From: a virus
DNA length: 64,000 nucleotides
Strand: one strand, 5' to 3'
IMG/VR virus record: IMGVR_UViG_3300032782_000001
Location: 116,404-180,403 of that record
Under the pieces are notes generated by a model. The model ran no database searches. It worked only from the letters and a program-made list of their open reading frames with translations, and was not told where the DNA came from. Every line of letters starts with the position of its first letter. The stretch's first letter is position 1. Shown piece after piece: positions 3,863 through 25,406 of this stretch. Position numbers and translations under genes: made by a program.

Positions 3863-3883
3863 CCTGGGATTGTATTGTCGACC

Positions 3884-12494: not shown

Positions 12495-13021
12495 CTGTCC
12501 ATTACCTCCGTCGCAATCTTGGACATGTCAGCGTTAGCCTCAAGCAGGACCCACAAGACGCGGGCATCTGCCGCTACCATAAATTTCTCGTGTCGCCAAT
12601 CCTGGCAGTACCAGTCATAACCTTCGTAAGTTTTCTTTCGTTCTCCTTGATGGAGACGGGTCCTACAAGGACGTACTTGCAGCATTACATGTCCGTTACT
12701 AAGTTCAGGGAGAACTTCGAAATGGAGCATGGCGATAGTCGTGGAAGTCGGGTTTGAAGAATAATCTTTGTGCTCGGATGTTGACCATTTCACCCAAAAA
12801 CGGTTACCACCACTGCAATGAATATGGATATGGTAGGAACAAAATTCAACGGATGCTTTTAGCCTGTCAAATTCTTGGATCAGGTGAGAAATTACTGAGT
12901 CATGTAGCTCACTGAACATCATTCCAGATAATACGTTCAGACTTTGCTGTAAAATGAATCCGGAGGTTTCCATGTCAGTTATTGTAGAGATCAGGGCCGC
13001 CGAAGGCGGAGATGACGCCAA
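12491..13021 (-). CDS. hypothetical protein (ends ...ATEVMDS)
   Basis: 176-aa minus ORF; no competing plus ORF; C-terminal VM-tail. Confidence 0.45.
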   Translation of the reverse strand: MASSPPSAALISTITDMETSGFILQQSLNVLSGMMFSELHDSVISHLIQEFDRLKASVEFCSYHIHIHCSGGNRFWVKWSTSEHKDYSSNPTSTTIAMLHFEVLPELSNGHVMLQVRPCRTRLHQGERKKTYEGYDWYCQDWRHEKFMVAADARVLWVLLEANADMSKIATEVMDS

Positions 13022-13638
13022 ACTCCTCGTTGAGGATCAACTCCGAGTCTATGCGCGCCGCGCGGTTCGGAGGGGTCTTTGACCTTGAAGTAACCGAACG
13101 CCTTCCGGGCCTCGTCGTCTTCCGGTTAACCGGTAAAGGTGCAGACGAAGCTTGGAAGGATGAAGCCGGTGGACACCGCTGGCAAAGGATTCCCCCAACC
13201 GAAAAAAGGGGTCGAGTCCAAACGAGCACTGTGACAGTGGCAGTTTTGCCAGAGCCCACAGAAGCTCAGATCCGGATCGATCCGAGGGACATAGAAGCGT
13301 CCACTACTCGTGGATCTGGTCCTGGTGGTCAAAATCGAAATAAAGTGGAAACGTGTGTCATTTTGAAGCACATCCCTACGGGGCTAACTGTTCGTTGTGA
13401 ATCTGAGAGATCACAACATCAGAATCGAGCTATTGCCCTGGCACTCCTCCGGGCCAGATTATGGGACGCTGCACAGAAGCAGGCCATTGGAGCTCGTGAT
13501 GATAACCGGAAACGTCAAATTGGATCCGGAATGCGTGGAGACAAGAGAAGAACAATTCGATGCCAGGATGGGATAGTCAACGATCACTTGACTGGAAGAC
13601 ACTGGAACTTCAAAGAATATGAGCGCGGTGACTGGTAA
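12972..13638 (+). CDS. PrfH-like class-I peptide chain release factor (lacks domain 1; GGQ motif); expression requires programmed +1 frameshift at CTT-TGA-C (13077-13083)
   Basis: Frame 0 (12972..13082) gives MSVIVEIRAAEGGDDAKLLVEDQLRVYARRAVRRGL-stop. The +1 frame from 13081 continues DLEVTE...GGHRWQRIPPTEKRGRVQTSTVTVAVLPE...SGPGGQNRNKVETCVILKHIPTG...RSQHQNR. The two frames together align with RF1/RF2 domains 2-4. The shift site is GGAGGGG-T-CTT-TGA-C, the canonical prfB cassette. Confidence 0.8.
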
Positions 13639-14001
13639 CTAGCGCTTCATCAAGAAACTCAAAGCCTTATTGTGGAAAGTGACGAGACCTTTACCGGCCT
13701 CGTCTCTCTCTGCAGTTCCGTGGTCGGAAACCAGCCATTTACAGAGGACTTCTCGAGCTTCCACAGCCATGGCCTTTGCTTCATCATCTTCTATTTTATC
13801 CAGAATATCAATGGTCTCCTCGATCATACCCTGGAAAATAGAATAGGTTCCAGAGATCTTACTCATTCGCTGGCGAAAACTTCGCCAGTTCACTTGCTGG
13901 GTAGAATCTTGGAAACCCTCGGTGCACCAATGACATATGGCGTCGGATTCACCTCCGCAGGCCTCGCAAACCCTAGGTGTATCTGCCGGATCGTCCATCA
14001 C
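13639..14001 (-). CDS. hypothetical protein with N-terminal Cys cluster
   Basis: 120-aa minus ORF; CEACGG...CHWC. Confidence 0.45.
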   Translation of the reverse strand: MMDDPADTPRVCEACGGESDAICHWCTEGFQDSTQQVNWRSFRQRMSKISGTYSIFQGMIEETIDILDKIEDDEAKAMAVEAREVLCKWLVSDHGTAERDEAGKGLVTFHNKALSFLMKR

Positions 14002-14038
14002 AAACTACAGAAGACAAAAGGTCGTTCAAGTGGACGAT

Positions 14039-14539
14039 TTATTTCTTGGCTTTGTCTTCGACTGCCTTGAAATCCGGGGGTATGACAACCGCTGTCTGCG
14101 GATTCATAGAAGGAAGGGGAGGCGGAACAGGAGCAGTAATAACTGGCTTCGGTTTCGGCTTGAGTTTATTCCCTACCGCAGGCGGTGCTGGATGGGGCGT
14201 TCCTGCAGGTGGTTCAGTGGTGGGTTCCGCGGATGCTGCAGCCATGGCTTCTTTGCGAACTTCCCGATCCTTTTTTAGGTATTCGTGAAGCGCTTTAATG
14301 TCTTCGTTCGTCTTCAAATTTGCTTCAGACAAGTTGGAAATGGACTTCGAGAGCTCTTCATAACTTGCCTTCTGAAGAGAGGTATCCATGGTTTTTACGA
14401 GCGCAGTGACGGCAGTAATGAGAGCCGTCAGAGCAGTAATCACAACTGCTACTGCTTTGGCCCTAGCGTAGAAATTTTTAGCCTCCGGAGGAATGCTTTC
14501 CTTGGCAGAATCGGGGCCTGAAATTTCTATCTGATTCAT
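14039..14539 (-). CDS. membrane/Pro-rich protein
   Basis: 166-aa minus ORF with hydrophobic helix VAVVITALTALITAVTALV and PKPKPVITAPVPPPLP. Confidence 0.5.
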   Translation of the reverse strand: MNQIEISGPDSAKESIPPEAKNFYARAKAVAVVITALTALITAVTALVKTMDTSLQKASYEELSKSISNLSEANLKTNEDIKALHEYLKKDREVRKEAMAAASAEPTTEPPAGTPHPAPPAVGNKLKPKPKPVITAPVPPPLPSMNPQTAVVIPPDFKAVEDKAKK

Positions 14540-14570
14540 ATTAGACCCCGCCCATTAGACGTCTCTAATA

Positions 14571-14610
14571 CCTACGACCGCGGAAATTGTGAAATTTCCG
14601 CGGTCGTAGG
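14571..14610. terminator. perfect 18-bp stem hairpin (CCTACGACCGCGGAAATT-GTGA-AATTTCCGCGGTCGTAGG)
   Basis: Perfect inverted repeat with 4-nt loop, lying between minus-strand genes; no strong U-tract. Confidence 0.5.
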
Positions 14611-14622
14611 AGCCACCTAGCT

Positions 14623-14727
14623 TTACTTCTTGGCTGCCTTCTTGGCTGCCTTCTTCGCGGGCTTTTTGGCTGCCTTCTTCGCGGGCTTCTTTGCGGCCTT
14701 CTTGGCTGCCTTCTTTGCGGTTGCCAT
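14623..14727 (-). CDS. 34-aa lysine/alanine-repeat basic peptide (MATAKKAAKKAAKKPAKKAAKKPAKKAAKKAAKK)
   Basis: Minus ORF with SD GAGGAAA 5 nt upstream of ATG, followed by strong hairpin; the track ORF 14555..14767 is the wrong frame of the same repeat. Confidence 0.4.
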   Translation of the reverse strand: MATAKKAAKKAAKKPAKKAAKKPAKKAAKKAAKK

Positions 14728-14796
14728 GATTTCCTCTGGGTTTGATGGAGTGATGTCTGAAGGCCAATGCATTCAGACAGAGAATCTAGTTGATAG

Positions 14797-15258
14797 CTAG
14801 ATCCCTACAGGAGTGTCCGAAGGTTCAATGAGCCGACGGAATTCCTCCCGGAGTTCTTTGTACATTACGAGTGTGCCTGTATAAACACGACACAACCCTA
14901 GAGAATCAGCTTGACAATAACATAAGAACCCGACTTGCCTATCGACGGGGTTCGCGAATTTCCTGAACCCTGGATGGCTACCGTGCTCCATTAGGGCAGT
15001 TTCCATCGCTTCTGCACTGATAGAATAGTCTACTTTAGGAGTCATTTTCTTCCCGAAAGGATAGAATGTGACTCGAATACCATCTTCATCCGCTTCAGTC
15101 CAATTCCCGGCAAAATTATCCGGCTTTGGATGGAAAGCTACGAAAGCGACACGCCCGAATTCCGGCCTATCATAAGGAATTATCGTCCTTCCACTAATCC
15201 GAAGCTGCTCGGATCTTGAATTAAGATCAGCCAGACTAATAACTAATTCAGTCTTCAT
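14797..15258 (-). CDS. hypothetical protein
   Basis: 153-aa minus ORF. Confidence 0.5.
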   Translation of the reverse strand: MKTELVISLADLNSRSEQLRISGRTIIPYDRPEFGRVAFVAFHPKPDNFAGNWTEADEDGIRVTFYPFGKKMTPKVDYSISAEAMETALMEHGSHPGFRKFANPVDRQVGFLCYCQADSLGLCRVYTGTLVMYKELREEFRRLIEPSDTPVGI

Positions 15259-15347
15259 AATTCACGCTACCAATTTTAGGCCTTTCTTGTTCTATTGGAA
15301 AGAAGCTCGTCCTGTGCGGCACCGGAGCCGCAGAAGGACGGAATCTC

Positions 15348-15629
15348 ATGGATAGGAAACTGGAGATCGGATCTGCCGTGGTATTCATCACGGCAGAGCG
15401 TGTGAAGGTTAACGCTCTCATCGAATACGTCCACCATAGTGGTAGCGTAGACGCTGAAGAGCACAGGCAGAAGTATGGAAACTGGCCGTGCGTGAATTTG
15501 ATGTTCCTGTCGCCGGATCCCAACAAGGTGGATCAGCATGGCAGGCAGAAGGAACGCGCCTCGTCAGTTTCTCACGGCAGTGTCCAGGGGACTCCTCAGG
15601 GTTACTGTTGGCTTTGGCCTGACGAGTAA
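15348..15629 (+). CDS. hypothetical protein (uncertain; competing minus ORFs)
   Basis: 93-aa ORF in gap between two minus genes. Confidence 0.2.
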   Translation: MDRKLEIGSAVVFITAERVKVNALIEYVHHSGSVDAEEHRQKYGNWPCVNLMFLSPDPNKVDQHGRQKERASSVSHGSVQGTPQGYCWLWPDE

Positions 15630-15699
15630 TCTTCCCGCCTTCGGTCGGTACCCAAAAGGCGCCGATGACCGGAGGTTCCGACGCCGCGCAGGGCGAGCT

Positions 15700-16431
15700 T
15701 CAAATGCCGGTGAGTTCGCACCACCGGTCTATCACCATTTGAGCGTATGCAATGGATGGCATTCCGTAGGCACCCAGAGAAAAGGCATCGTTTACTTCAA
15801 CAACAAGTGTCTTTCCTTCCGACGTGACTCCGAGGTCCAGAGAATAAGCCACAGGCGCGCTTTTAAACGCCAGTACACATTTTTGCGCAATTTCAAAATC
15901 CGGATATTTCGTGAAGTCACCTCGATAATGACGACAGTTCACAATCAGTCCTCGATGAATGAACAGTCTATATTCAGCCACGAAGTCCACCACATCAGAG
16001 GCTAAGATTTCGAATTCATCCGGGAATGAAGCCGTCTTGATAAGATCCCGGATTGCGCCACTCGTTACAAACCCTGTGAACGCTTTACCACTTTTGAGTG
16101 GCTTGATGAACATGTGATGATTATTTTCGAGACGCTCCCTAACATATTTCATGTTGGTTTCCCACATATGTCGACCATAAAATTCGCGAATTTCTTCGAC
16201 AGGTCCGTGATCTAATGTAGGTTGCACAATTCCAAGTCTATCCAGAGCTCGACGCACAGGGCCGATCCATCCATGAACTAACGTCTCTTTGCGGAGTTCT
16301 AGTGAATCGATTTCCTCGGCCGTGAAAGGAATTGTTTCTATACCAAGCATATAACATCCATACCACAGGGAAAAAGCGGTCTCATTAATGAACTCACCGT
16401 TTTTCTTCTGGATGTATGCGAGATCAATCAT
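15700..16431 (-). CDS. ATP-grasp fold protein (putative)
   Basis: FIKPLKSGKAFTG, EYRLFIHRG and DLGV..GKTLVVEVND resemble ATP-grasp lysine, central and C-terminal motifs. Confidence 0.5.
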   Translation of the reverse strand: MIDLAYIQKKNGEFINETAFSLWYGCYMLGIETIPFTAEEIDSLELRKETLVHGWIGPVRRALDRLGIVQPTLDHGPVEEIREFYGRHMWETNMKYVRERLENNHHMFIKPLKSGKAFTGFVTSGAIRDLIKTASFPDEFEILASDVVDFVAEYRLFIHRGLIVNCRHYRGDFTKYPDFEIAQKCVLAFKSAPVAYSLDLGVTSEGKTLVVEVNDAFSLGAYGMPSIAYAQMVIDRWCELTGI

Positions 16432-16458
16432 TAGACATGTTACAGCGTAAGATCTCGC

Positions 16459-17409
16459 ATGCGACTCCGAGGAACAGAATTTGGCAGAGTTTGGTGCTCT
16501 TCAGGATCATTGGGATTCTTCGGTGACGGATATTGGTATCATCGGTTGATGAAACCGTTCGGTCTGGACTACGAAGATACTACCTTCGTGGCTAAGACGA
16601 CGACTCTCTTCCCAAGGAAAGGGAACATGCCTTTGAAGGAAGATAAGGTGACGCCGAAAAATTTACTTCCTTCTTGCATTAAGATCAACTTTCGGAAAGG
16701 GGCAGTTCTGAATTCCGTCGGACTCAGCGGACCAGGTTTTTTCGATCTGATTGGAACAGGGAAATGGCAAAGGAGAACCGAACCTTTCCTCATTTCCTTC
16801 ATGTCAGTATCTTCAACGCCTGAGGGAAGGCTCTCGGAGCTTCGAGGCTTCGTTAGTTTTCTTAAGCCGAAAATCCAAGAATTTCAGGCGCCTTTCGGTG
16901 TGGAAATGAACTTCTCATGCCCAAATGTTGGGCTCCATTCCGGAGAGTTATCCTCTGAAGTCATGACGGCTTTGGAAACAGCTGCTCCGCTTCAAGTCCC
17001 TCTTATTCCGAATTTCGGACCCGACGTCTCCACAAAGATCATTTGGGACACCATGCTTCATCCTTCTTGTGATGCAGTGTCTATTTCCAACACTTTGAAG
17101 TGGGGAATGATGCCTGATCGCGTGGATTGGGAATCCATTTGGGGGTCTAAATCCTCTCCACTAGTCCAATTTGGAGGTGGAGGAATGTCCGGGTCTCCTA
17201 TTTTCCCGATAGTGTTGGAACTCGTCCAAGAAGTTTGCAAAGACTCTATTCCGAAACCCCTGATTGCGGGCGGCGGAATCATGAACGAGGCTAACGCTGT
17301 AGCACTCATTAAGTCTGGAGCTTCTGCCATCAAGCTGGGAACAGTTGCGATGCTCAGGCCGTGGCGTGTACGTGGGATTGTAAAGAAAGTTCGGGAGATG
17401 ATGCTTTGA
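16459..17409 (+). CDS. pyrD: dihydroorotate dehydrogenase (class 1-like)
   Basis: NFSCPNVG active-site motif and C-terminal LIAGGGIMNEANAVALIKSGASAIKLGT FMN-binding motif. Confidence 0.8.
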   Translation: MRLRGTEFGRVWCSSGSLGFFGDGYWYHRLMKPFGLDYEDTTFVAKTTTLFPRKGNMPLKEDKVTPKNLLPSCIKINFRKGAVLNSVGLSGPGFFDLIGTGKWQRRTEPFLISFMSVSSTPEGRLSELRGFVSFLKPKIQEFQAPFGVEMNFSCPNVGLHSGELSSEVMTALETAAPLQVPLIPNFGPDVSTKIIWDTMLHPSCDAVSISNTLKWGMMPDRVDWESIWGSKSSPLVQFGGGGMSGSPIFPIVLELVQEVCKDSIPKPLIAGGGIMNEANAVALIKSGASAIKLGTVAMLRPWRVRGIVKKVREMML

Positions 17410-18410
17410 AAATTTCCATTCGAAGGCCAGATGATTTCCATGTTCATTTAAGAGATGGTGACATTCCATCTCTCGTAGGTCCATATACGTCTGATTCCTT
17501 CTCAAGGGCTTTGGTGATGCCCAACACTTCTTCTCCCATTCTCTCAGCGATGGATGCTGAAACCTACAGGAAGAAGCTTCGAGAAGATGTCCCCCTTCTT
17601 GAGCCCCTCATGACTATTCAGCTCACAAGTTCTACTTCACCAGAAATGATCTTGGAAGCCCAAAAAGTGGGGGTTATGGCTGCCAAGTTTTACCCCTTGG
17701 GGGTCACAACCAATTCAGGGAACGGATCTCTTCAGATCACTGATTTGAGATCTCAGCTCTCCATGATGGAAGAAATTGGAATGATCTTATGCCTCCATGG
17801 AGAAACTCCAAACGTTTTTTGTATGGACAGGGAACGCGATTTCTTGCAACGTTCCCTCATGCCGCTGTCGAAGGGGTTTCCTAAACTCAAGATTGTTCTG
17901 GAACATCTATCCACGGCTGATGCTGTTGGCTACGTAGAAAATCTCCCCGACAATGTTGCAGCCACCATCACAGCTCATCATCTAGTCTTGACTCTGGATG
18001 ATGTTTTGGGAGATAAACTGAAGACGCATCATTTCTGTAAGCCCATAGCCAAGCACCCGAGAGACAGAGAAGAACTCCGAAGGGCGGCCACTTCCGGGAA
18101 TCCAAAATTCTTCCTCGGAACTGATTCAGCACCTCATCCAATCAATGGTAAAGAATGTGCTGAAGGATGTGCCGGAGTTTTCACTGCACCAGTTGCCATG
18201 GAAATCTTGGCAGAAGAATTTGAGAAAGCAGATGCTCTCCAAAAATTGGAAGCGTTCACCAGCGAATTTGGAGCACGATTCTACGGACTTCCATTGAATA
18301 AAGAAAAACTCGTTTTAGAGAAGAAATTGCGACGAGTTCCTGGTATGGTACAGAGAAATTTTGTACCATTTATGAGCGGTAAGGAACTATTATGGTCTCG
18401 AAGCTCTTGA
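17406..18410 (+). CDS. pyrC: dihydroorotase (class II, PyrC-like)
   Basis: LKISIRRPDDFHVHLRDGD...MPNTSSPI and LGTDSAPHP...CAGVFTAP...FYGLPLN collinear with E. coli PyrC; TTG at 17406 with GGGAG SD preferred over GTG 17361. Confidence 0.9.
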   Translation: MKISIRRPDDFHVHLRDGDIPSLVGPYTSDSFSRALVMPNTSSPILSAMDAETYRKKLREDVPLLEPLMTIQLTSSTSPEMILEAQKVGVMAAKFYPLGVTTNSGNGSLQITDLRSQLSMMEEIGMILCLHGETPNVFCMDRERDFLQRSLMPLSKGFPKLKIVLEHLSTADAVGYVENLPDNVAATITAHHLVLTLDDVLGDKLKTHHFCKPIAKHPRDREELRRAATSGNPKFFLGTDSAPHPINGKECAEGCAGVFTAPVAMEILAEEFEKADALQKLEAFTSEFGARFYGLPLNKEKLVLEKKLRRVPGMVQRNFVPFMSGKELLWSRSS

Positions 18411-18459: not shown

Positions 18460-18533
18460 CCGCCAGTAGCTCAGTTGGTAAGAGCACGAGCCTTATAAGC
18501 ACGGAGTCGGTGGTTCGATCCCACCCTGGCGGA
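18460..18533 (+). tRNA. tRNA with anticodon TAT (Ile, AUA-reading)
   Basis: Cloverleaf: acceptor CCGCCAG/CTGGCGG, D-arm GCTC-AGTTGGTAA-GAGC, anticodon loop CTTATAA, T-arm GGTGG-TTCGATC-CCACC; no CCA encoded. Confidence 0.6.
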
Positions 18534-18534
18534 C

Positions 18535-19548
18535 TTAATCGTCGTCACTAAAAGACGAGCTAGACCCTCCGTCGTCATTGTCATCATTACCGAAGGAAGA
18601 TGCGGATCCGCCGGAATCGTCATCATCTGATACGCTGGATGATGACCCGAAAGATGAGCTAGCACCGCCAGTGTCATCATCGTCGTCATACCTGCGGCGA
18701 GACCGGACCTCCCGTTCCACGTAGACGTCCCTCTCGTATACCCTGTCTCGACGCGCGCTCAAGCTGCCGAGTGCATAACCAGTAAGAAGATCCCCATTTC
18801 CTCCAGAAGAGGAAGTCTGATTCACTACTACTGTAGTAGGAGCCGCAGGAGCTGCAACATAGACCGGGCGCATAGCCGGAGCTGGAGGGGGCATAGCCGG
18901 AGGCGGCGGATCCGGAATCTGATTAGAACGACGCGGCTTGGAAGAGACTTCTCTGGCCTTATCACGGAATTTATCAGCCCATGCCTCTTCTTCCATATTG
19001 CGAACACGTTTCTCTGCAATTTCTTCGTCCAGCTCTTCGATCTTCCTCTCGTGCTCTTCTTCCCGCCGTTTGTTCTTCCACCAGAAGAAACCACCGATCG
19101 CCACTACGAGGACCACGGTGCCAAAGATCCACCATCCAGTGTTACTATTCGTGGCAGGGCCAGGAATTTGAGCAGGTGTAGATTGAGTGGTCGAAGTCTG
19201 GGTCCTGAGACCAATGGTCTTCTCAGCAATTTTCACAACGCCGTCTGCCCAACGGGCCTCTTTGAAAGCAGAATTGCCGGCAGACGAAATAGATGACCAC
19301 TGTGATGGGGTAACTCCGACGCCCTTACCGAAATGGACCACAACGTTTTTGTGGGTCGGATCCAATCCGATGGCAACCACACCAGGTTCATCTACAGCCT
19401 TGTGTACTCGCGACTCGAGTGCCGATTTGCTCAAGGAGCTTGATGTGATCACTTGAACGTCGAATGGCCACTGGGCCGCCGCGGTTTGTAGTGCGGTTAC
19501 GTCCGCAGGGCTGAAAGTCCCAGCATCATCATGAATGTTGATCGTCAT
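18535..19548 (-). CDS. TPM-domain protein with TM helix and Gly/Ser/Asp-rich C-terminal tail
   Basis: N-terminal TPM-like domain, TM segment WWIFGTVVLVVAIGGFFWW, then low-complexity tail; stop abuts tRNA. Confidence 0.65.
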   Translation of the reverse strand: MTINIHDDAGTFSPADVTALQTAAAQWPFDVQVITSSSLSKSALESRVHKAVDEPGVVAIGLDPTHKNVVVHFGKGVGVTPSQWSSISSAGNSAFKEARWADGVVKIAEKTIGLRTQTSTTQSTPAQIPGPATNSNTGWWIFGTVVLVVAIGGFFWWKNKRREEEHERKIEELDEEIAEKRVRNMEEEAWADKFRDKAREVSSKPRRSNQIPDPPPPAMPPPAPAMRPVYVAAPAAPTTVVVNQTSSSGGNGDLLTGYALGSLSARRDRVYERDVYVEREVRSRRRYDDDDDTGGASSSFGSSSSVSDDDDSGGSASSFGNDDNDDGGSSSSFSDDD

Positions 19549-19768: not shown

Positions 19769-20185
19769 ATGTATCAGATGAGTGAAGAAGAGCGCGCGGA
19801 GCGCTCCAAGGTGAAGGCTCTCCACGCGGCTATTCGCGGATGCGGCCCGGTTGGTGACCGGTATCGCAATCTCGCGTGGGGTTTCGTGCGCGGTTTCCCA
19901 TACCGACGCATTGAGCGGAACCATCATGTTCAAATGTTGGACAACGCCAACTATGAACAGATGGCGAAGCTCGACAACCATTATCGTCAACTTGACGGTC
20001 AGTGGTTTTATGAACACAATATGCCCTCGGAGACTTGGCTCTTCGACACCTTGAAGAAGTTCCTCCCGGAACTTAAGAAGGAACAGATTGTCACGTGGAT
20101 GCGTGACATGTCCGGTGCAATTCCTCCGCCGCCACCTCGGCCAAAGCGGACGCGTGAAGAAGCGATGGCTCACGCGGGGGTGTAG
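19769..20185 (+). CDS. hypothetical protein
   Basis: 138-aa ORF with good SD; Pro-rich C-terminus. Confidence 0.6.
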   Translation: MYQMSEEERAERSKVKALHAAIRGCGPVGDRYRNLAWGFVRGFPYRRIERNHHVQMLDNANYEQMAKLDNHYRQLDGQWFYEHNMPSETWLFDTLKKFLPELKKEQIVTWMRDMSGAIPPPPPRPKRTREEAMAHAGV

Positions 20186-20523
20186 TGGACAAGCTATACG
20201 TCATCGTCCGGGGGGATCTTCCCCCCGGAGACCAGGCCGTCCAATCCATGCATGCGGCGTTGAAATACGCCAAAGAGCATTCGGATTGGACGGCCTGGTA
20301 CGAGGCTTCCAATTACATTGCGCTCCTAAGCGTGCCTAATGAGCGAGAGCTCATGAAATTGCTGATGAAAGCGCGAGATCGAGATCTCAAATTCGCAGCT
20401 TTCTGCGAGCCGGATCTAGATGATTCTATGACTGCTATTGCACTTGAACCCGGGTTCCGATCCAGGCGCTTGTGCAATGGGCTCCCGCTTGCGCTTTCGG
20501 AAAACCAAAATATTCCGGCGTAA
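20185..20523 (+). CDS. peptidyl-tRNA hydrolase, PTH2 family
   Basis: KLYVIVRGDLPPGDQAVQSMHAAL matches PTH2 core (VxVVRxDLxMGxGKxAAQCxHAA). Confidence 0.7.
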   Translation: MDKLYVIVRGDLPPGDQAVQSMHAALKYAKEHSDWTAWYEASNYIALLSVPNERELMKLLMKARDRDLKFAAFCEPDLDDSMTAIALEPGFRSRRLCNGLPLALSENQNIPA

Positions 20524-20531
20524 GCTAGTTC

Positions 20532-20786
20532 ATGAACGACACCATTAGGACCGTGCGGGCGCTTCTTCAGAACACGGCATCACCGGCTGGTGATCACACT
20601 AAGGTTATCTTGGAAGTTAAGCAGCATTCTGGAGAAATCATCTGGCCGGACTTCATTACTCACGACGACAAAGTCTACAGGAACACTCTCACTACCCTCT
20701 GGGGTGCTCGCGTTTATTCGCAAGTCCCGGCATGTCCAGCGAGAATTTCTGAAGATAAGTGGGACGAACTGGCTAAAGGGTCCTGA
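20532..20786 (+). CDS. hypothetical protein
   Basis: 84-aa ORF; stop followed directly by next start. Confidence 0.5.
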   Translation: MNDTIRTVRALLQNTASPAGDHTKVILEVKQHSGEIIWPDFITHDDKVYRNTLTTLWGARVYSQVPACPARISEDKWDELAKGS

Positions 20787-20787
20787 G

Positions 20788-21192
20788 ATGATGGGCTACA
20801 GCGCTACCGACGTCTTCACGAAGAAGGAACAAGTGCTCTTGAGCATGGCCAAAGTTCTGGTTGAATGCTTACCAGAAATTCCAGGTCTCCGATGTCACGA
20901 AGTAGCAAGAGCCGTAGGTACCGTCTTGGGTTTGGAAACCCAAGATGGTCATTATGGACCGGTAGAACACTCCTGGCTCGTCGTTCCTCCTCGAAGCATG
21001 GGACGGGGGCCGGGAGTGCTTGACGTATACTCTGTTGGAAGTCTTCCCACAGTCCGTTTATGTGACGGGTTCCTTCTGCTCCCTTATGCCAAAGAATTCC
21101 AACCGGGGATCCCTAGGCAGGATATTGATGAAGGTTTGGTGATGGATCTTATAGACTGCATGCACGCGAGGCTTCTGGGAGCTCCGCTGTAA
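20788..21192 (+). CDS. hypothetical protein
   Basis: Begins MMGYSATD immediately after upstream TGA; upstream part of track ORF 20590 is low-complexity. Confidence 0.5.
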   Translation: MMGYSATDVFTKKEQVLLSMAKVLVECLPEIPGLRCHEVARAVGTVLGLETQDGHYGPVEHSWLVVPPRSMGRGPGVLDVYSVGSLPTVRLCDGFLLLPYAKEFQPGIPRQDIDEGLVMDLIDCMHARLLGAPL

Positions 21193-21202
21193 CGTTCAGC
21201 CC

Positions 21203-21781
21203 ATGGAAGATAACGAGATTCTCGGGAATCCGCGCGATGGCATCATTGAGCTATTGAAGGCTCGAAGTGTCAAATTTGGGAATTTCACTCTAGCGTCAGG
21301 GAAGAAGAGCGATTTCTTCGTGGATTGCAAACAATCCATTCTCACTGGTATCGGACATGTCTGGGCTGGGCAACTGATGTTGGAAGCTGTCGCCCTTCAC
21401 TTCAAGGAAGCTAGGGCTGTAGCAGGGGTGGAACTCGGTGGGTGCCCCCTGGCGAGTTCAGTGGCGCTCCTCAGTGCTGTCGCTCCTGAAATTCATAGTC
21501 TGGATGCTCTATACGTTCGTAAGACTAAGAAAGATCACGGAACTGGGAATCTTGTAGAAGGTAAAGGTGACATGGAATCCGGAACCCCGGTCGTCTTGCT
21601 TGAGGACGTCGCGACGACTGGAGGATCTTCCATGAGAGCTATCAAAGCACTTCAAGATGAAGGATTCCGGGTCCTCGGGGTTATTACCCTCCTGGATAGG
21701 AATGAAGGCGCTTCTGACGCGTTCCGTGAAGCCGACATCCCGTTTGTCGCCATCTTGGACCGATGCGACCTCGAGGACTGA
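21203..21781 (+). CDS. pyrE: orotate phosphoribosyltransferase
   Basis: VKFGNFTLASGKKSDFFVDC and PRPP motif VVLLEDVATTGGS. Confidence 0.85.
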   Translation: MEDNEILGNPRDGIIELLKARSVKFGNFTLASGKKSDFFVDCKQSILTGIGHVWAGQLMLEAVALHFKEARAVAGVELGGCPLASSVALLSAVAPEIHSLDALYVRKTKKDHGTGNLVEGKGDMESGTPVVLLEDVATTGGSSMRAIKALQDEGFRVLGVITLLDRNEGASDAFREADIPFVAILDRCDLED

Positions 21782-22713
21782 TCAGCGTCTTCCTGGTTCT
21801 GTCTTGTTCCAAGCAGCCAGTTCAGACGAACACCGAAGGCATCCCTGACGCCGGACAACCGGTCGTCGTCGAAGCCGTCCCGCTTGAGCCGGAAAACCAC
21901 CTTCCTGTCGTTACTCTCGGTGAATATTCCACCGAGTATTCATGCGAAGGGAAGGATGAAGCTCGAGCCAAGAATATCGAGCTTGCAGCTTCTCGTCTCC
22001 AAGCGTGGAACGAGAATTGGAACCCTGGCGAGGAATTCAGTTTTAACGATGCAGTCGGACCACGGACTTCAGAAGCTGGGTTCTTAAACGCTCCCGTCAT
22101 CTTCATGGGTGAGACCACAGCAGGGATAGGTGGAGGAGTCTGCCAAGTTAGTTCCACGCTCCACGCGGCCGCTCTCATGAGTGGATTGGAAGTTATTACC
22201 CGTCGCCCCCATACGCGCTTCTCCAAGTATATTCCTCACGGCTTAGATGCGACGGTGGCTTATCCGCCTGAATGCAATGGGAATCACCGGGAGAATATCG
22301 CGAATGGAAAAAATCCGAAGTGTGATTCGGTGGATTTGATTCTCCGAAACCCATTCGGATTTGAGATCAGTATTAAGACATTTACTGAAGAATCAGGTTT
22401 AGGGAAGAAGCGACTGAGAATCTGGATCGAAGGAGCCAAGAATCCGATCGAGAAAGCTTCCTACCGCATCATGCAGTCCGGTGGCGTGGATTTTAAAAGG
22501 ACCTTCCATAAAATTAGTCGAATCCGGACTGCTACTTACAAGAAGCTAGTTCAATCCGGTCAACAAGGGGCTCATGTTACTTCATTCATATCATATTTGA
22601 TGAAGGACGGGACGAAGAAAGAAATCAGCTACAGGAGTGAGTACCCTCCGGTGAACGAAACCTGGGAGGTTGGACTTCTGTACGATATGTCAGGTCCGCC
22701 GCCTTGGGAATAG
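21763..22713 (+). CDS. VanW-domain protein, probable lipoprotein
   Basis: GGGVCQVSSTLHAAALMSGLEVITRRPH matches VanW core; N-terminal LVLSCS lipobox-like. Confidence 0.6.
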   Translation: MRPRGLISVFLVLSCSKQPVQTNTEGIPDAGQPVVVEAVPLEPENHLPVVTLGEYSTEYSCEGKDEARAKNIELAASRLQAWNENWNPGEEFSFNDAVGPRTSEAGFLNAPVIFMGETTAGIGGGVCQVSSTLHAAALMSGLEVITRRPHTRFSKYIPHGLDATVAYPPECNGNHRENIANGKNPKCDSVDLILRNPFGFEISIKTFTEESGLGKKRLRIWIEGAKNPIEKASYRIMQSGGVDFKRTFHKISRIRTATYKKLVQSGQQGAHVTSFISYLMKDGTKKEISYRSEYPPVNETWEVGLLYDMSGPPPWE

Positions 22714-22718
22714 ATTAT

Positions 22719-22795
22719 GGGTCCGTAGCTCAACTGGCTAGAGCTGTCGTTTTCAACTCGAATGGTTGCGGGTTCAAATCCCGTCGGGCCCTCCA
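22719..22795 (+). tRNA. tRNA-like gene; anticodon positions 34-36 read TCA (UGA-reading) but anticodon stem weak (3 WC pairs)
   Basis: Acceptor GGGTCCG/CGGGCCC, D-arm GCTC-AACTGGCTA-GAGC, T-arm GCGGG-TTCAAAT-CCCGT, encoded CCA; loop TTTCAAC. Confidence 0.4.
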
Positions 22796-22819
22796 CTTTC
22801 AATGAAAAGCAAGCGTCAA

Positions 22820-22892
22820 GCTTCCGTAGCCAAGTTGGTCAGGCAGCGGCTTTCAATTCCGCCACACGTGGGTTCGAGTCCCACCGGAAGCG
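22820..22892 (+). tRNA. tRNA with anticodon TCA (opal-suppressor type)
   Basis: Acceptor GCTTCCG/CGGAAGC, anticodon stem GCGGC/TCCGC (4 bp + C-T), loop TTTCAAT, T-arm GTGGG-TTCGAGT-CCCAC. Confidence 0.55.
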
Positions 22893-22913
22893 CTCGCTAG
22901 GTACTGTGGTACC

Positions 22914-23531
22914 ATGGCGCCTGTAGATATCCCGGATGGCGGTCTCGACTTGTCTTCGGCTACTGAAGACGTTGTGCGAGAATATGCCATGGACCTCATC
23001 AACGAGTACGTCCCGAGCACGACAGGAGACGACAAGTTTGCTGAAATCGCCAAAGATTATGGCGGTTCAGGGACGACCTGCGGTTATTTATGCCATTGGC
23101 TCATGTGGCGAATGGGATGCCGCGATCCGAAAATGGTGAACCGAGATGAGCCGTCAGACGGGCTTCATTATGTTCCCGGCGCGAACATTTCACGGATCTT
23201 CGCTAATCCTCATTTCGTCCATTACAAACCCGGTTTGGGAATGACGCCTGATAATGGGGACATTGTCTTCCTCAGCGACGGGCCCCCCGACACTGAGCAT
23301 GTGTACGTCTCGACTGGAGTGGATGACACGAAAGATCCCCCCATTTGGAGTGGGGCTAACGCGGGTCAGAGAGATAAAACCACTGGCAAACAGTGTTCTA
23401 TCTTCATAGACAGAACATTCTCCCATGATTCTCTCTTATACTCTGGCGGATCCAAGAAGATCGTGGGATGGGTAGATATCAGCCAGCTTCCATTCACTGC
23501 CATGGCGGATCTACACGAACCTGGTGAATGA
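22914..23531 (+). CDS. putative papain-fold cysteine peptidase (transglutaminase/CHAP-like)
   Basis: GTTCGYLCHWLMWRMGCRD candidate catalytic Cys region and downstream His/Asp; weak. Confidence 0.35.
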   Translation: MAPVDIPDGGLDLSSATEDVVREYAMDLINEYVPSTTGDDKFAEIAKDYGGSGTTCGYLCHWLMWRMGCRDPKMVNRDEPSDGLHYVPGANISRIFANPHFVHYKPGLGMTPDNGDIVFLSDGPPDTEHVYVSTGVDDTKDPPIWSGANAGQRDKTTGKQCSIFIDRTFSHDSLLYSGGSKKIVGWVDISQLPFTAMADLHEPGE

Positions 23532-24352
23532 TGCAAGGCATTAAACTCATCTTTAGGTCCAAGGAAAATCGAGTTCTCGCCTTCAAGAACGCAGATGACT
23601 GGGACCTTCCTTCTTGTTCCGTAGAACATGTGGACGAACTCCGAAACTCTACGAGGAATCTTTTCAAGAAGGTAACGGGTGCATTTCCGGATAAAGATCC
23701 CATCCCTGTGTATCGCGGATACGACGATGAATATGGGGTTTCTTCGTCGTATATTTCGGATTGGACAGGGATCCCGAAAACTAAGAAAGGTCAGAAAGCA
23801 GACTGGGTTGATGTTATCGATATATTATCCAGTAAATGGGGACTTTTTGCCCGGGATGCTTTCCACCGGCTCAAATTGATTAACCGTCCTAAGCTGGACT
23901 TGGAAGATCTCTACACAATCAGCAAGAAAGCTTTAAAAGACGGATCTCGTCATGCAAGCGAAGGCGTCGACAAAGTCATTGACGAAATTGTTTTCCTCAT
24001 GGAGATCAATAAATCTGAGGCAGTAGACAACCTGCTTCAGCATATGGATGTAACCAAACTCCATGCTGATATCTTGTCAGCTGCACTGGCGGTACTAGAA
24101 AATTACGATTTACCTTCAAAAGCAAGATTCGTCGAAGATGCCAACATCATCATTCAGGAAATCGATGCCTTACGTCCAAAAATGAAACTTAAAGATGAAT
24201 ATGGGAGAATTTTATCTCATGATGTCCGGGGGGATGCCTTGAAATATTATCGCAAGAAAGCTGTTGAATTCGGAAATCTTCTGCGAGAAGGAAAACTCGG
24301 ACCAGGCCTCCATCGAGGCGGAGCTCCCATCCCCCGCAGGAAAGCAAATTGA
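23528..24352 (+). CDS. hypothetical protein
   Basis: 274-aa ORF. Confidence 0.55.
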   Translation: MMQGIKLIFRSKENRVLAFKNADDWDLPSCSVEHVDELRNSTRNLFKKVTGAFPDKDPIPVYRGYDDEYGVSSSYISDWTGIPKTKKGQKADWVDVIDILSSKWGLFARDAFHRLKLINRPKLDLEDLYTISKKALKDGSRHASEGVDKVIDEIVFLMEINKSEAVDNLLQHMDVTKLHADILSAALAVLENYDLPSKARFVEDANIIIQEIDALRPKMKLKDEYGRILSHDVRGDALKYYRKKAVEFGNLLREGKLGPGLHRGGAPIPRRKAN

Positions 24353-24633
24353 ACTATCAGGAAAAGCAAAGACTCATTCAACAGGCATTGAAAGATATGT
24401 CTGACGGAAAGAGGAATCTTCTCAGTAATCCTTTCGCCGGTCTCATGCCTCCGAGATTGGATCCTTCAGAAGTCGCCAGAAAAATGTTTCCTATTGAGCC
24501 CCTTCCACAAGGAGCGGTGCCAGTATACTTTCTGCCTCAATGCATAAGATGTGATGGTCATTACGAAGATTTGAAAAATCATTCAATCGAAGAATGTAAT
24601 CTTTGCATCGTTGTTGATGTGATGGAGTCATGA
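24349..24633 (+). CDS. small zinc-ribbon protein, C-terminal ...VVDVMES
   Basis: CIRC...ECNLC then VMES-stop; ATGA overlap with next paralog. Confidence 0.55.
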   Translation: MNYQEKQRLIQQALKDMSDGKRNLLSNPFAGLMPPRLDPSEVARKMFPIEPLPQGAVPVYFLPQCIRCDGHYEDLKNHSIEECNLCIVVDVMES

Positions 24634-24881
24634 ACGGTCCGAAACGACTCCACTACAGTGATTCTAACAAGTTGACTGCATCCGTCAATAAAATTAGCCA
24701 TCTCATGACCAACCACGATTGGGAAGATAAGTCCGAACCAGAGAAGAAAGCGGGCGGACTTATCATTTCTAAAATCGAATTGGAATGTCGTAAATGCGGA
24801 TTGGTGGCCGGGTTGCTTCCTCTTGAGGAGTTGGATCGCGATTGCGACATTGTTTTAGTGCGCTCCGTGATGGAGTCATAA
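24630..24881 (+). CDS. small zinc-ribbon protein, C-terminal ...VRSVMES
   Basis: CRKC...DCD then VMES-stop. Confidence 0.55.
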   Translation: MNGPKRLHYSDSNKLTASVNKISHLMTNHDWEDKSEPEKKAGGLIISKIELECRKCGLVAGLLPLEELDRDCDIVLVRSVMES

Positions 24882-24920
24882 ATTTCTGTTGTAATGTTGT
24901 ATCACTAGATAACCCAATCA

Positions 24921-24936
24921 GGAGGAAGTCATGTAG
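24921..24936 (+). promoter_or_regulatory. start-stop mini-ORF: SD GGAGGA then ATG-TAG
   Basis: GGAGGAAGTCATGTAG; strong SD 4 nt before ATG followed directly by TAG. Confidence 0.2.
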
Positions 24937-24944
24937 ACTTAGAA

Positions 24945-25010
24945 ATTCGGGCGGCAGGGGTGAAGGCCCCGCACCGGTAGGTTAATGGGTTCAAGTCCCA
25001 ACCCCGACCC
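24945..25010 (+). other. tRNA-like fragment with T-arm (TGGG-TTCAAGT-CCCA) but no complete cloverleaf found
   Basis: GGGTTCAAGTCCCAACCCCGACC resembles T-arm plus acceptor 3' strand; no complementary 5' acceptor located. Confidence 0.2.
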
Positions 25011-25029
25011 GTCTTACCTTTTCCAATTC

Positions 25030-25406
25030 GGGCCTGATCGGCTTCGACTGGGGAAGAAAGAACGATCTGCGTGCAGGCGGCGCTCGATCCGCCATAACCA
25101 ATCGAGCCGACACAGCTGCCAACGACAACGGCGCCCTCCGCATCGCGGCCTAAAAAACCGCGCGGATGTCTTCCCGGCGAAACTGCTTCCAGTAACCGGA
25201 TGAAGGCACGAACCCAAGAGGAAGCTGGCCGTGGGAGTAACCCTCCTTTTATCCCGACGCCTCAGCCGGGAAGGCGAGATCAAGTCTAGGCTGACAGTGC
25301 GGAAAGACGCGCAAACTCAGTCGCAGGGGATACGGCGACTACGCACGTGAACGAGGGTTGTTTGGACAACTTCAGGACGCGGGTTCGATTCCCGCCAGGT
25401 CCACAA
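25030..25406 (+). ncRNA. ssrA: tmRNA (ssrA); predicted tag ANDNGALRIAA
   Basis: 5' GGGCCTGATCGGCTTCGACTGGGG is like E. coli GGGGCUGAUUCUGGAUUCGACGGG. 3' GGACGCGGGTTCGATTCCCGCCAGGTCCACA is nearly identical to the E. coli tmRNA 3' end. Acceptor pairs 25030-25036 with 25396-25402. Internal ORF GCC AAC GAC AAC GGC GCC CTC CGC ATC GCG GCC TAA. Confidence 0.8.

What the first reader, a model, noticed from the sequence alone, without database searches (positions are those of the whole stretch)
12972..25406. Clustered translation-takeover toolkit: RF-H-like factor, PTH2 peptidyl-tRNA hydrolase, tRNAs, tmRNA
Within ~12 kb the phage encodes the frameshift-gated release factor (12972), a tRNA-Ile(TAT) (18460), a PTH2 peptidyl-tRNA hydrolase (20185), the two TCA-anticodon tRNAs (22719, 22820) and a tmRNA (25030). 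This is a coherent set of factors acting on stalled or terminating ribosomes. It may counter host translation-targeting defences (tRNA/mRNA nucleases, ribosome stalling).
Basis: inference. Interest (0 to 1): 0.55.

Follow-up and report, generated by a model that had tools for sequence, protein, structure and literature searches.

The report
Huge-phage translation island, gated release factor

Summary
Observation confirmed. tRNA-Ile(UAU), two unrelated opal-suppressor tRNAs(UCA), a full-length tmRNA, a PTH2-fold protein and a frameshift-dependent release factor all lie in 12972-25406. They are interspersed with pyrimidine-synthesis and other genes.

The factor is not RF-H. It scores as RF1 (212 bits) above RF2 (135) and PrfH (90), and it keeps the PxT-type motif and GGQ. 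It lacks domain 1, and no RtcB was found.

Its gene carries a prfB-type cassette, GGAGGGG-T-CUU-UGA-C, at codon 36/37. Of 133 homologous loci, 106 have this +1 shift (77 UGA, 28 UAG, 1 UAA), 24 have an in-frame stop at or near that position, and 3 are ungated. In most of the 24 the stop replaces the canonical RF1 tryptophan.

The family is chromosomal in Myxococcota. In huge phages it sits inside tRNA arrays, often with PTH2 and sometimes directly beside a tmRNA, so the island recurs. Close relatives of this phage pair the PTH2 block with amber, opal-like or ochre suppressor tRNAs.

Best reading: an island that manages stop-codon decoding and ribosome clean-up, resembling a phage "code-change module". 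However, TGA is the commonest ordinary stop in this window. The anti-defence idea is untested.

Translation toolkits in jumbo phages are known; the gated RF1-type family looks new.

The parts
12962..12966 (+). GGAGG ribosome-binding site of the release-factor gene
   Evidence: Read directly from the sequence, 5 nt upstream of ATG 12972.
12972..13079 (+). Release-factor gene, frame-0 part (codons 1-36, MSVIVEIRAAEGGDDAKLLVEDQLRVYARRAVRRGL)
   Evidence: Aligns with the start of RF1 domain 2, including the GG(D/E)(D/E)A helix tip. Called as a separate 36-aa PCRF fragment in the relative L001.
13069..13083 (+). prfB-type +1 frameshift cassette: GGAGGGG (SD-like) T CTT TGA C
   Evidence: Read from the sequence. 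The cassette sits at the same codon in 106 of 133 homologous loci. CTT is invariant in 94 of 94 distinct contexts. An SD-like element lies upstream in 74 of 94. AGG makes up 38% of Arg codons just before CTT, against 5% in the gene bodies.
13081..13638 (+). Release-factor gene, +1 frame part (residues 37-221; PPT motif, GGQ, TAA stop)
   Evidence: Pfam PCRF 101-194/194 plus RF-1. NCBIfam prfA 212 bits, above prfB 135 and prfH 90. Best PDB matches are RF1. AF2 model TM 0.89 to ribosome-bound RF1.
18460..18534 (+). tRNA-Ile(UAU)
   Evidence: ARAGORN; Rfam tRNA 63.6 bits. ATA makes up only 14 of 393 Ile codons in sampled window genes.
20185..20523 (+). Divergent PTH2-fold protein (putative peptidyl-tRNA hydrolase)
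   Evidence: Pfam PF01981 35.3 bits, gathering score 23. AF2 pLDDT 93; Foldseek top 14 hits are all Pth2/Bit1, TM 0.74-0.78. Small family of 23 homologs. The Lys after the conserved Gly is not kept; Glu75 is invariant at the Asp position.
22719..22795 (+). Opal-suppressor tRNA(UCA) no. 1 (U73, CCA encoded)
   Evidence: ARAGORN cloverleaf with a 7-nt anticodon loop. Rfam tRNA 56.7 bits. Same scaffold as an ochre tRNA(UUA) in relative L150.
22820..22893 (+). Opal-suppressor tRNA(UCA) no. 2 (G73)
   Evidence: ARAGORN; Rfam tRNA 55.1 bits. Unrelated to no. 1 (alignment score 12 of about 75). Closest to an amber tRNA(CUA) in L056.
25030..25406 (+). tmRNA, one-piece, tag ANDNGALRIAA
   Evidence: Rfam RF00023 111.9 bits, full-length model match. 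ARAGORN tRNA-like domain and tag reading frame. No SmpB detected in the window by tblastn.

Best explanation
This stretch is the translation island of a huge phage, or of a similarly large mobile element; the relatives' contigs are 337-436 kb. It carries parts that change and tidy up how stop codons are handled in the infected cell.

Shown:
(a) A 221-aa RF1-type class-I release factor without domain 1 can be made only if the ribosome slips +1 on CUU at CUU-UGA-C. An SD-like GGAGGGG sits upstream, the same device as in prfB.
(b) There are two unrelated tRNAs with a UCA anticodon, one tRNA-Ile(UAU), a PTH2-fold protein and a complete tmRNA.
(c) The same release-factor family sits in tRNA arrays of many huge phages, with PTH2 and sometimes a tmRNA next to it.

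Inferred mechanism:
- The suppressor tRNAs compete with host RF2 for UGA.
- The RF1-type factor adds termination capacity at UAA and UAG.
- How much of it is made depends on how slowly the UGA at its own codon 37 is decoded. Fast decoding, by RF2 or by a suppressor tRNA, gives a dead 36-aa or read-through product. Slow decoding gives the +1 slip and the full factor.
- tmRNA rescues ribosomes that run past stops or stall, and PTH2 recycles tRNA from dropped-off peptidyl-tRNA.

This is the logic of the 'code-change module' described for TGA-recoded phages, built into the general translational self-sufficiency of huge phages.
For: - Components verified.
- The frameshift is real and selected. It is identical in an independent assembly (L001) and in a curated 485-kb huge-phage genome, LR745208. 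It is present in 106 of 133 loci. CTT is invariant, and the SD-like element and rare AGG codon are enriched only in frameshift-type genes.
- RF1-type residues (Q..PPT..T and GGQ) are conserved.
- The island recurs. PTH2 of 97-107 bits lies in the tRNA arrays beside the RF in L010, L019, L020, L024, L025 and L049. A tmRNA abuts the RF in L004 and L148.
- All four PTH2 contexts of this lineage seen (the window with L001, plus the three relatives fetched) have suppressor or suppressor-like tRNAs 0.7-3 kb downstream of the PTH2 block: UCA x2 here, CUA in L146, an 8-nt-loop 'ttca' tRNA in L148, and UUA x2 in L150.
- A suppressor tRNA, RF1 and TrpRS 'code change module' is described for TGA-recoded Jade phages (bioRxiv 10.1101/2021.08.26.457843).
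- Huge phages are reported to carry RF1/RF2, tmRNA and SmpB (PMC7162821).
Against: - TGA is the commonest ordinary stop in the window: 43 of 97 ORFs, with ATGA overlaps.
- TGA stops are not backed up; read-through would add a median of 44 codons.
- No gene with a convincing in-frame TGA was found, and no aaRS was seen.
- A UGA-reading tRNA should lower, not raise, productive frameshifting at the gate.
- An RF1-type factor cannot autoregulate on UGA, yet UGA is the usual gate codon.
- The PTH2 gene's most conserved neighbours are a phosphoribosyltransferase and a NUDIX gene, not translation genes. Its catalytic Lys is not conserved.
- The elements are spread among unrelated genes on both strands, and no expression data exist.
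- Only 64 kb of a genome of roughly 340-436 kb was seen.
Confidence: 0.45

Rival explanations
1. Anti-defence toolkit. The island supplies spare translation parts so that the phage survives host systems that cut tRNAs or mRNAs or stall ribosomes. tmRNA and the RF free stalled ribosomes, PTH2 recycles tRNA, and phage tRNAs replace cleaved ones.
For: In most related huge-phage loci the RF sits inside near-complete tRNA arrays, up to 39 tRNAs within 10 kb. From general knowledge, not tested here, such arrays can bypass anticodon nucleases. All parts act on stalled or terminating ribosomes.
Against: This phage has only three tRNAs in the window, and two are suppressors rather than copies of typical nuclease targets. 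No RtcB, Pnkp/Hen1 or RNA ligase was detected in the ORFs scanned. The RF keeps stop-codon recognition residues, so it is not an obvious codon-independent rescue factor. The same RF family is an ordinary chromosomal gene in Myxococcota without defence context.
Confidence: 0.15
2. Accretion without coordinated function. Huge phages collect translation genes for general independence from the host. These genes pile up in variable, homing-endonuclease-rich tRNA islands, so the co-location reflects an insertion hot spot and shared descent rather than a working unit.
For: GIY-YIG and two HNH endonuclease genes flank the region, and HNH genes recur in related loci. The parts are interleaved with pyrimidine-synthesis genes and lie on no single operon. 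Gene order differs among relatives. Cultured jumbo phages are already reported with tRNAs, suppressor tRNAs that have no identifiable targets, Pth and tmRNA (PMC5852040; PMC11242549).
Against: Tight adjacency recurs in unrelated arrangements: PTH2 13 nt from the RF in L049, and a tmRNA 11-12 nt from the RF on either side in L004 and L148. The PTH2 block is paired with suppressor tRNAs of all three stop anticodons in relatives.
Confidence: 0.25
3. The gate is true autoregulation by a factor with broadened specificity. The short RF reads UGA as well as UAG/UAA, or acts as a back-up terminator when RF1 or RF2 is limiting. It therefore shuts off its own synthesis at whichever stop sits in the gate, and the suppressor tRNAs are a separate matter.
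For: The gate codon is UGA in 100 loci and UAG in 29. No residue of the protein co-varies with that choice except the trivially linked residue 37. In prfB, where autoregulation is established, UAG is never used: 0 of 8,164 genomes (PMC12421855). About 98% of family members are gated, implying that unregulated expression is harmful. RF2 variants evolving towards omnipotence are reported to be toxic (PMC7530605, title and abstract).
Against: All RF1 determinants recalled from RF1-ribosome structures are retained: Gln and Thr for the third base, and PxT as PPT or PPN. Nothing in the sequence shows UGA recognition. A plain pause site that senses RF1 or RF2 shortage explains the same data.
Confidence: 0.25
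4. The window is not from a phage but from a large plasmid or an unusual small cellular genome, so the tmRNA and tRNAs would be ordinary housekeeping genes.
For: No capsid, tail or terminase gene was detected in 64 kb. Large plasmid-like elements with similar translation gene suites are mentioned in PMC7162821.
Against: Most ORFs have no family match, as is typical for huge phages. The content includes homing endonucleases, a D12 methylase, a sigma factor, RecA and nucleotide-metabolism genes. Relatives of the PTH2 block carry endolysin-type M15 peptidases. The RF family's closest database phage hits are curated huge-phage genomes. Two suppressor tRNAs in a genome that uses TGA as its main stop would be odd for a cell.
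Confidence: 0.1

Closest known systems
prfB (RF2) programmed +1 frameshift
   Same: Same cassette: an SD-like element about 3 nt upstream, then CUU, a stop codon and usually C. The same slip of tRNA-Leu from CUU to UUU is implied, and the host gene is also a class-I release factor.
   Different: It sits in an RF1-type gene, at codon 36/37 inside domain 2 rather than codon 26 of domain 1. The gate codon is UGA, UAG or, once, UAA, whereas UAG is absent from 8,164 prfB motifs. A sister clade uses an in-frame stop instead of a shift.
RF1 (prfA)
   Same: Best sequence match (212 bits) and best structure match (TM 0.89). PxT-type motif, GGQ, and domains 2-4 are present.
   Different: Lacks domain 1 (about 104 residues) and the last 30 or so residues. 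It scores below the equivalog cut-offs. It is gated by recoding, which a 12,000-genome survey did not find for prfA (PMC12421855).
PrfH (RF-H) with RtcB2
   Same: About 200 aa, no domain 1, GGQ present.
   Different: PrfH model score 90, cut-off 166.65. TM 0.65. The stop-codon tripeptide is retained here. There is no RtcB neighbour.
Phage 'code change module' (suppressor tRNA + TrpRS + RF1 in TGA-recoded Jade phages; bioRxiv 10.1101/2021.08.26.457843)
   Same: UGA-suppressor tRNA genes together with an RF1-type factor in a phage, encoded in standard code.
   Different: No aaRS was found. No in-frame TGA occurs in neighbouring genes, and TGA is the main stop in the window. The RF is truncated and itself gated by UGA.
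Mimivirus/Megavirus eRF1-like gene needing a frameshift and a read-through (PMC3521657)
   Same: A virus-encoded release-factor gene interrupted by stop codons that must be bypassed by recoding. That paper proposes the arrangement to be autoregulatory.
   Different: That factor is of the eukaryotic/archaeal eRF1 type in a eukaryotic virus. Here it is a bacterial-type RF with one event per gene.
Translation gene complements of jumbo and huge phages (PMC7162821, PMC5852040, PMC11242549)
   Same: tRNA arrays, suppressor tRNAs without known targets, peptidyl-tRNA hydrolase, tmRNA and RF1/RF2 have been reported.
   Different: Those reports do not describe the truncated RF1-type family, its gate, or its regular placement in tRNA arrays with PTH2 and tmRNA.

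Membership tests
PrfH (RF-H) | Scores above the curated PrfH equivalog model (TIGR03072, cut-off 166.65) | tested here: not met
   90.3 bits, while prfA models give 211-212 bits.
PrfH (RF-H) | Encoded next to an RtcB-type RNA ligase | tested here: not met
   No RtcB among the called genes within 10 kb in L001 or among the window ORFs scanned. No conserved neighbour in 76 bacterial loci.
PrfH (RF-H) | Loss of the stop-codon tripeptide (PxT/SPF). The feature is taken from general knowledge of the family. | tested here: not met
   PPT is at the PxT position within WQRIPPTEKRGRVQTS. PPT or PPN is conserved across the family.
PrfH (RF-H) | No domain 1 | tested here: met
   The product aligns to RF1 positions 105-316 of 347 only.
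RF1 (prfA) | Closest family by sequence and by fold | tested here: met
   NCBIfam prfA 212 bits, above prfB 135 and prfH 90. PDB RF1 E = 2e-48. TM 0.89 to ribosome-bound RF1.
RF1 (prfA) | Passes the equivalog cut-off and has the full four-domain architecture | tested here: not met
   212 bits against cut-offs of 400 and 423. Domain 1 and the C-terminal end are absent.
RF1 (prfA) | PxT motif and GGQ | tested here: met
   PPT at residues 74-76 and GGQ at 118-120.
prfB-type programmed +1 frameshift | CUU-stop-C shift site with an SD-like element a few nt upstream | tested here: met
   GGAGGGG T CTT TGA C at 13069-13083.
prfB-type programmed +1 frameshift | Conserved across diverged homologs, with nucleotide-level selection | tested here: met
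   106 of 133 loci. CTT in 94 of 94 contexts. SD-like element in 74 of 94 frameshift-type genes against 1 of 22 read-through-type genes. AGG 38% against 5%.
prfB-type programmed +1 frameshift | The gate codon is one that the encoded factor itself reads (autoregulation) | tested here: inconclusive
   RF1-type residues occur with a UGA gate here. The family uses UGA (100 loci) and UAG (29) with no co-varying recognition residue. Specificity cannot be measured with these tools.
PTH2 peptidyl-tRNA hydrolase | Pfam PF01981 above gathering score, and PTH2 fold | tested here: met
   35.3 bits against 23. Foldseek top 14 hits are all Pth2/Bit1, TM 0.74-0.78.
PTH2 peptidyl-tRNA hydrolase | Active-site Lys and Asp. 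The residues are recalled from work on archaeal Pth2 and were not re-checked in a paper. | tested here: inconclusive
   The position after the conserved Gly is D, P, S or L rather than K. Glu75 is invariant where Asp is expected.
tmRNA | Full covariance-model match with a tRNA-like domain and a tag reading frame | tested here: met
   RF00023 111.9 bits, model 1-374 of 374. Tag ANDNGALRIAA followed by a stop.
tmRNA | SmpB partner encoded alongside | tested here: not met
Host SmpB may serve.
Opal suppressor tRNA | Standard cloverleaf, 7-nt anticodon loop with UCA, not a tRNA-Sec | tested here: met
   74 and 77 nt, short variable arms. Both match Rfam tRNA RF00005.
Opal suppressor tRNA | Charged with a defined amino acid and active in suppression | not testable with these tools
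   Similarity to phage tRNAs gave no clear isotype. The discriminator base is U73 in one and G73 in the other.
Phage code-change module | Suppressor tRNA together with an RF that does not read the suppressed codon | tested here: met
   Two tRNA(UCA) genes and an RF1-type factor within 10 kb.
Phage code-change module | In-frame recoded stops in neighbouring late or lysis genes, plus a matching aaRS | tested here: not met
   The window is fully readable in standard code. TGA ends 43 of 97 ORFs. No aaRS was found among the ORFs scanned.
Huge-phage translation island | The same parts recur together in other huge-phage contigs | tested here: met
   Of 48 non-redundant viral loci, 29 have at least 5 tRNAs, 8 have PTH2 and 2 have a tmRNA. 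Of 75 bacterial-bin loci, the counts are 4, 1 and 1.

The most novel reading that the evidence does not exclude
The release factor belongs to a third, so far undescribed family of bacterial-type class-I release factors. It is compact, RF1-derived and lacks domain 1. It is chromosomal in Myxococcota and common in huge phages. About 98% of its genes are interrupted at or near the codon that replaces the conserved RF1 tryptophan, and need either a prfB-like +1 frameshift or stop-codon read-through. The same recognition residues accompany UGA and UAG gates. So the factor either reads both, which would make it a naturally omnipotent bacterial-type RF under autoregulation, or it is a back-up terminator switched on when host RF2 or RF1 runs short. 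In this phage it is combined with opal suppressor tRNAs, PTH2 and tmRNA to re-programme termination.
Probability: 0.4. Interest if true: 0.8.

Novelty: new variant of a known kind. Interest (0 to 1): 0.62.

Why it matters
Programmed frameshifting in release-factor genes has been a one-gene story (prfB). A recent survey of 12,000 genomes found none in prfA and never a UAG in the prfB motif.

A second, widespread family with the same cassette but an RF1-type body gives a natural test of what such gates sense: the factor's own activity or that of another factor. The family uses both UGA and UAG gates, and a sister clade uses read-through at the ancestral Trp codon.

It also points to a small, RF3-independent-looking release factor that phages carry next to their tRNA sets, PTH2 and tmRNA. 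This bears on how huge phages take control of termination and possibly of the genetic code.

On the practical side, the cassette is a compact sensor of UGA or UAG decoding, and the factor is a minimal RF1. Both could be useful for genetic-code engineering.

Tried and rejected
- Whole-window TGA recoding. Two same-frame ORF pairs separated by a single TGA (3203-3862|3875-4720 and 41258-42055|42059-43027) looked like candidates. The first pair is called as two genes in the relative, and its second ORF is a complete D12 methylase. The second pair has no homology either way. Stop usage and 90% ORF coverage fit standard code.
- Back-up stops after TGA as a sign of adaptation to suppression: none found.
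- Amino-acid identity of the tRNA(UCA) genes by similarity to 731 phage tRNAs: no clear isotype.
- Whether phages with in-frame-TGA RF genes are code 4. A crude ORF-coverage test was confounded by tRNA arrays and GC content. A homology test across in-frame TGAs was noisy and underpowered (a first attempt timed out).
- Correlation of the gate codon with the PxT variant or any other residue: none beyond residue 37.
- A conserved partner gene in bacterial loci: none.
- Promoter and terminator scan: counts no higher than in shuffled sequence.
- megablast of the region against GenBank phages: no match.
- Walking beyond the window ends by exact-protein look-up: not on record.
- Literature searches for a description of this RF family or its frameshift found nothing. 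The library lacks most subscription journals, so absence is not proof.

Full report
**1. What is in the sequence**

ARAGORN finds four RNA genes in the 64-kb window, all inside the reported span. They are tRNA-Ile(tat) at 18460-18534, tRNA(tca) at 22719-22795 and 22820-22893, and a tmRNA at 25030-25404 with tag ANDNGALRIAA. Rfam confirms all four above gathering score. The tmRNA scores 111.9 bits over the whole model, and the three tRNAs match the general tRNA family rather than tRNA-Sec.

The two UCA tRNAs are ordinary 74- and 77-nt cloverleaves with 7-nt anticodon loops. They are unrelated to each other (alignment score 12 of about 75). They are therefore two independent opal suppressors and not a recent duplicate.

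**2. The release-factor gene**

The gene starts at ATG 12972 behind a GGAGG ribosome-binding site. Frame 0 encodes 36 residues (MSVIVEIRAAEGGDDAKLLVEDQLRVYARRAVRRGL) that align with the beginning of RF1 domain 2. It then meets TGA within the sequence GGAGGGG-T-CTT-TGA-C at 13069-13083. The rest of the protein is in the +1 frame, up to TAA at 13638. This is the prfB device: an SD-like element, CUU in the P site, and UGA followed by C.

The joined 221-aa product has Pfam PCRF (C-terminal half only) and RF-1 domains.

**3. It is not RF-H**

- NCBIfam scores are prfA 212, prfB 135 and prfH 90 bits, and the PrfH cut-off is 166.65.
- The best solved relatives are RF1 chains.
- An AlphaFold model (pLDDT 83) superposes on ribosome-bound RF1 at TM 0.89, on RF2 at about 0.8-0.85 and on PrfH at 0.65.
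- The RF1 recognition residues are retained (WQRIPPTEKRGRVQTS, GGQ).
- No RtcB gene lies nearby.

What it shares with RF-H is only the missing domain 1.

**4. The family and its gate**

A protein search returns thousands of homologs. The closest are short proteins of about 195-235 aa. Many were called from a downstream start and begin ...GGVFDL..., which is the shift cassette read in the +1 frame.

I collected 64 loci from IMG/VR viral contigs (many 100-480 kb) and 80 from GTDB genomes. The GTDB loci are mostly Myxococcota and include the isolates Minicystis rosea, Archangium gephyra and Pyxidicoccus fallax.

Of 133 full-length loci:
- 106 require a +1 shift at the same codon, on CTT-TGA (77), CTT-TAG (28) or CTT-TAA (1);
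- 24 carry an in-frame stop at or near that position (23 TGA, 1 TAG);
- 3 are uninterrupted.

In most in-frame cases the stop sits exactly where canonical RF1 has tryptophan (for example ...KLG-TGA-KHR... against RF1 ...RKGWNLE...). Read-through as Trp would therefore restore the ancestral residue.

Selection is visible at the nucleotide level. CTT is present in 94 of 94 distinct frameshift contexts. An SD-like element lies in the 12 nt upstream in 74 of 94 frameshift-type genes but in only 1 of 22 read-through-type genes. The rare Arg codon AGG makes up 38% of Arg codons just before CTT, against 5% in the gene bodies.

The same cassette (CGGAGGGGTCTTTGACC) is present in the 485-kb huge-phage genome LR745208.

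No residue co-varies with the choice of UGA or UAG except residue 37, which is fixed by the shifted codon. In bacteria the gene has no conserved neighbour.

**5. Literature**

A 12,000-genome study reports programmed frameshifting in prfB only. It found no convincing case in prfA and no UAG among 8,164 prfB motifs (PMC12421855). A review of release-factor evolution does not mention phages or frameshifting. Targeted searches found no description of this family.

The nearest conceptual parallel is the Mimivirus eRF1-like gene, which needs a frameshift and a read-through (PMC3521657).

**6. PTH2**

The 112-aa product of 20185-20523 passes the Pfam PTH2 gathering score (35.3 against 23). It belongs to a small family of 23 proteins. 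It folds with high confidence into the PTH2 fold; the top 14 PDB matches are all archaeal Pth2 or human Bit1, at TM 0.74-0.78.

It is divergent. The lysine that follows the conserved glycine in archaeal enzymes is not kept, while Glu75 is invariant at the Asp position. Hydrolase activity is therefore inferred.

**7. Is the clustering meaningful?**

Within the window, five independent elements falling within 12.4 of 64 kb has p of about 0.006. No other translation gene was seen in about 60 further ORFs. The rest of the window encodes a D12 methylase, a sigma-70 factor, RecA, RuvC- and RuvA-like proteins, ferritin-like protein, pyroglutamyl peptidase, YfbR-like and dCTP-deaminase-like enzymes, a NinI-like phosphatase and HNH endonucleases.

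The stronger evidence is comparative.
- Of 48 non-redundant viral loci with this RF, 33 have a tRNA gene within 10 kb, 29 have at least five (up to 39), 22 have one within 500 nt, 8 have PTH2 and 2 have a tmRNA. Of 75 bacterial-bin loci the counts are 17, 4, 12, 1 and 1.
- PTH2 ends 13 nt before the RF in L049.
- A tmRNA starts 11 nt after the RF in L004 and ends 12 nt before it in L148.
- Close relatives of this phage share the block PTH2 - phosphoribosyltransferase - NUDIX. Each one has suppressor tRNAs just downstream: CUA in L146/147; an 8-nt-loop 'ttca' tRNA plus a tmRNA and a gated RF in L148/149; and two UUA in L150/151.
- Suppressor no. 1 of the window shares its scaffold with one of the ochre tRNAs.

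**8. What argues against a simple code switch**

The window reads cleanly in standard code, with 97 ORFs and 90% coverage. TGA is the commonest stop (43 of 97, with typical ATGA overlaps). TGA stops have no nearby back-up stop; the median extension on read-through would be 44 codons. No aaRS or SmpB was seen.

A UGA-reading tRNA should also compete with the productive +1 slip. In frame 0 a second TGA follows two codons later, and read-through yields only a short junk tail.

Only 64 kb of a genome of roughly 340-436 kb is visible, so recoded late genes elsewhere cannot be excluded.

Suppressor tRNAs without identifiable targets, Pth and tmRNA have already been noted in cultured jumbo phages (PMC5852040, PMC11242549). 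Huge phages are reported to carry RF1/RF2, tmRNA and SmpB (PMC7162821).

**9. Verdict**

However, the RF is mis-assigned and the anti-defence purpose is untested.

The most likely function is management of stop-codon decoding and its by-products during infection. The RF1-type factor would be produced according to how the UGA in its own gene is decoded. Confidence in this reading is about 0.45.

As a phage translation toolkit this is a known kind of thing. The gated, domain-1-less RF1-type family across huge phages and Myxococcota appears to be a new variant and is the part most worth following up.

Noticed in passing
L040-L055 and others (e.g. L043 10001-10654), viral contigs: In a sister clade of the release-factor family the gene has an in-frame TGA where canonical RF1 has Trp (…KLG-TGA-KHR…). 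There is no SD-like element upstream. L002 has an in-frame TAG, and L017 has two TGAs. It is unresolved whether these phages use code 4 or rely on leaky read-through.
   Followed up: partly
L148 12858-12934 (also L149): A tRNA with an 8-nt anticodon loop (CC-TTCA-GT) lies next to a tRNA-Glu(TTC). It is 2.4 kb upstream of a tmRNA-RF pair. It could be an opal suppressor or a frameshift suppressor.
   Followed up: no
L150 11415-11580 (also L151): Two tandem ochre-suppressor tRNAs (anticodon TTA) lie in a high-GC relative, downstream of the same PTH2-PRTase-NUDIX block. L146/147 has an amber tRNA(CTA) at the equivalent place. Related phages thus carry suppressors for all three stops.
   Followed up: partly
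window 16459-18410 and 21203-21781: Pyrimidine de novo synthesis genes lie inside the island: a dihydroorotate-dehydrogenase-like gene, dihydroorotase (pyrC, 374 bits) and orotate phosphoribosyltransferase (pyrE, 135 bits). dCTP-deaminase-like and YfbR-like nucleotidase genes lie elsewhere in the window.
   Followed up: partly
window 20185-21781; L146, L148, L150: The PTH2-like gene is always followed within about 1 kb by a phosphoribosyltransferase, and in relatives by a NUDIX hydrolase. This raises the possibility that this divergent PTH2-fold protein acts on a nucleotide-linked substrate rather than peptidyl-tRNA.
   Followed up: no
window 13080-13088: A second in-frame TGA follows two codons after the shift-site TGA (CTT TGA CCT TGA). 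Frame-0 read-through would therefore need two suppression events and still ends in a short junk tail. The second TGA is not conserved in other loci.
   Followed up: partly
window 15700-16431 (-): An R2K-clade ATP-grasp protein (Pfam R2K_2, 132 bits) is encoded on the opposite strand between the RF and the pyr genes. It is conserved in the close relative L001.
   Followed up: no
window 11177-12136, 26023-26679, 27383-27946: A GIY-YIG nuclease fused to a methyltransferase-like region and two HNH endonucleases flank the island. HNH genes recur in the tRNA arrays of related loci, which is consistent with mobile, mosaic islands.
   Followed up: partly
window 18535-19548 (-): A 337-aa protein has an N-terminal TPM/DUF5129-like domain, a transmembrane segment, a proline-rich stretch and a long Asp/Ser/Gly-rich acidic tail. 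It lies directly after tRNA-Ile on the opposite strand.
   Followed up: no
window 36348-37550, 43761-45152, 51580-52230: A sigma-70-family factor (regions 2 and 4), a RecA homolog and a pyroglutamyl peptidase (C15) are encoded elsewhere in the window. No capsid, tail or terminase gene was detected anywhere in the 64 kb.
   Followed up: partly
L066, L080, L091 (Minicystis rosea, Archangium gephyra, Pyxidicoccus fallax chromosomes): Cultured myxobacteria carry the frameshift-gated short RF gene as a stand-alone chromosomal gene. Public annotations call only the +1 ORF, for example a 174-188-aa 'release factor-like protein'. The frameshift therefore appears not to be annotated.
   Followed up: partly
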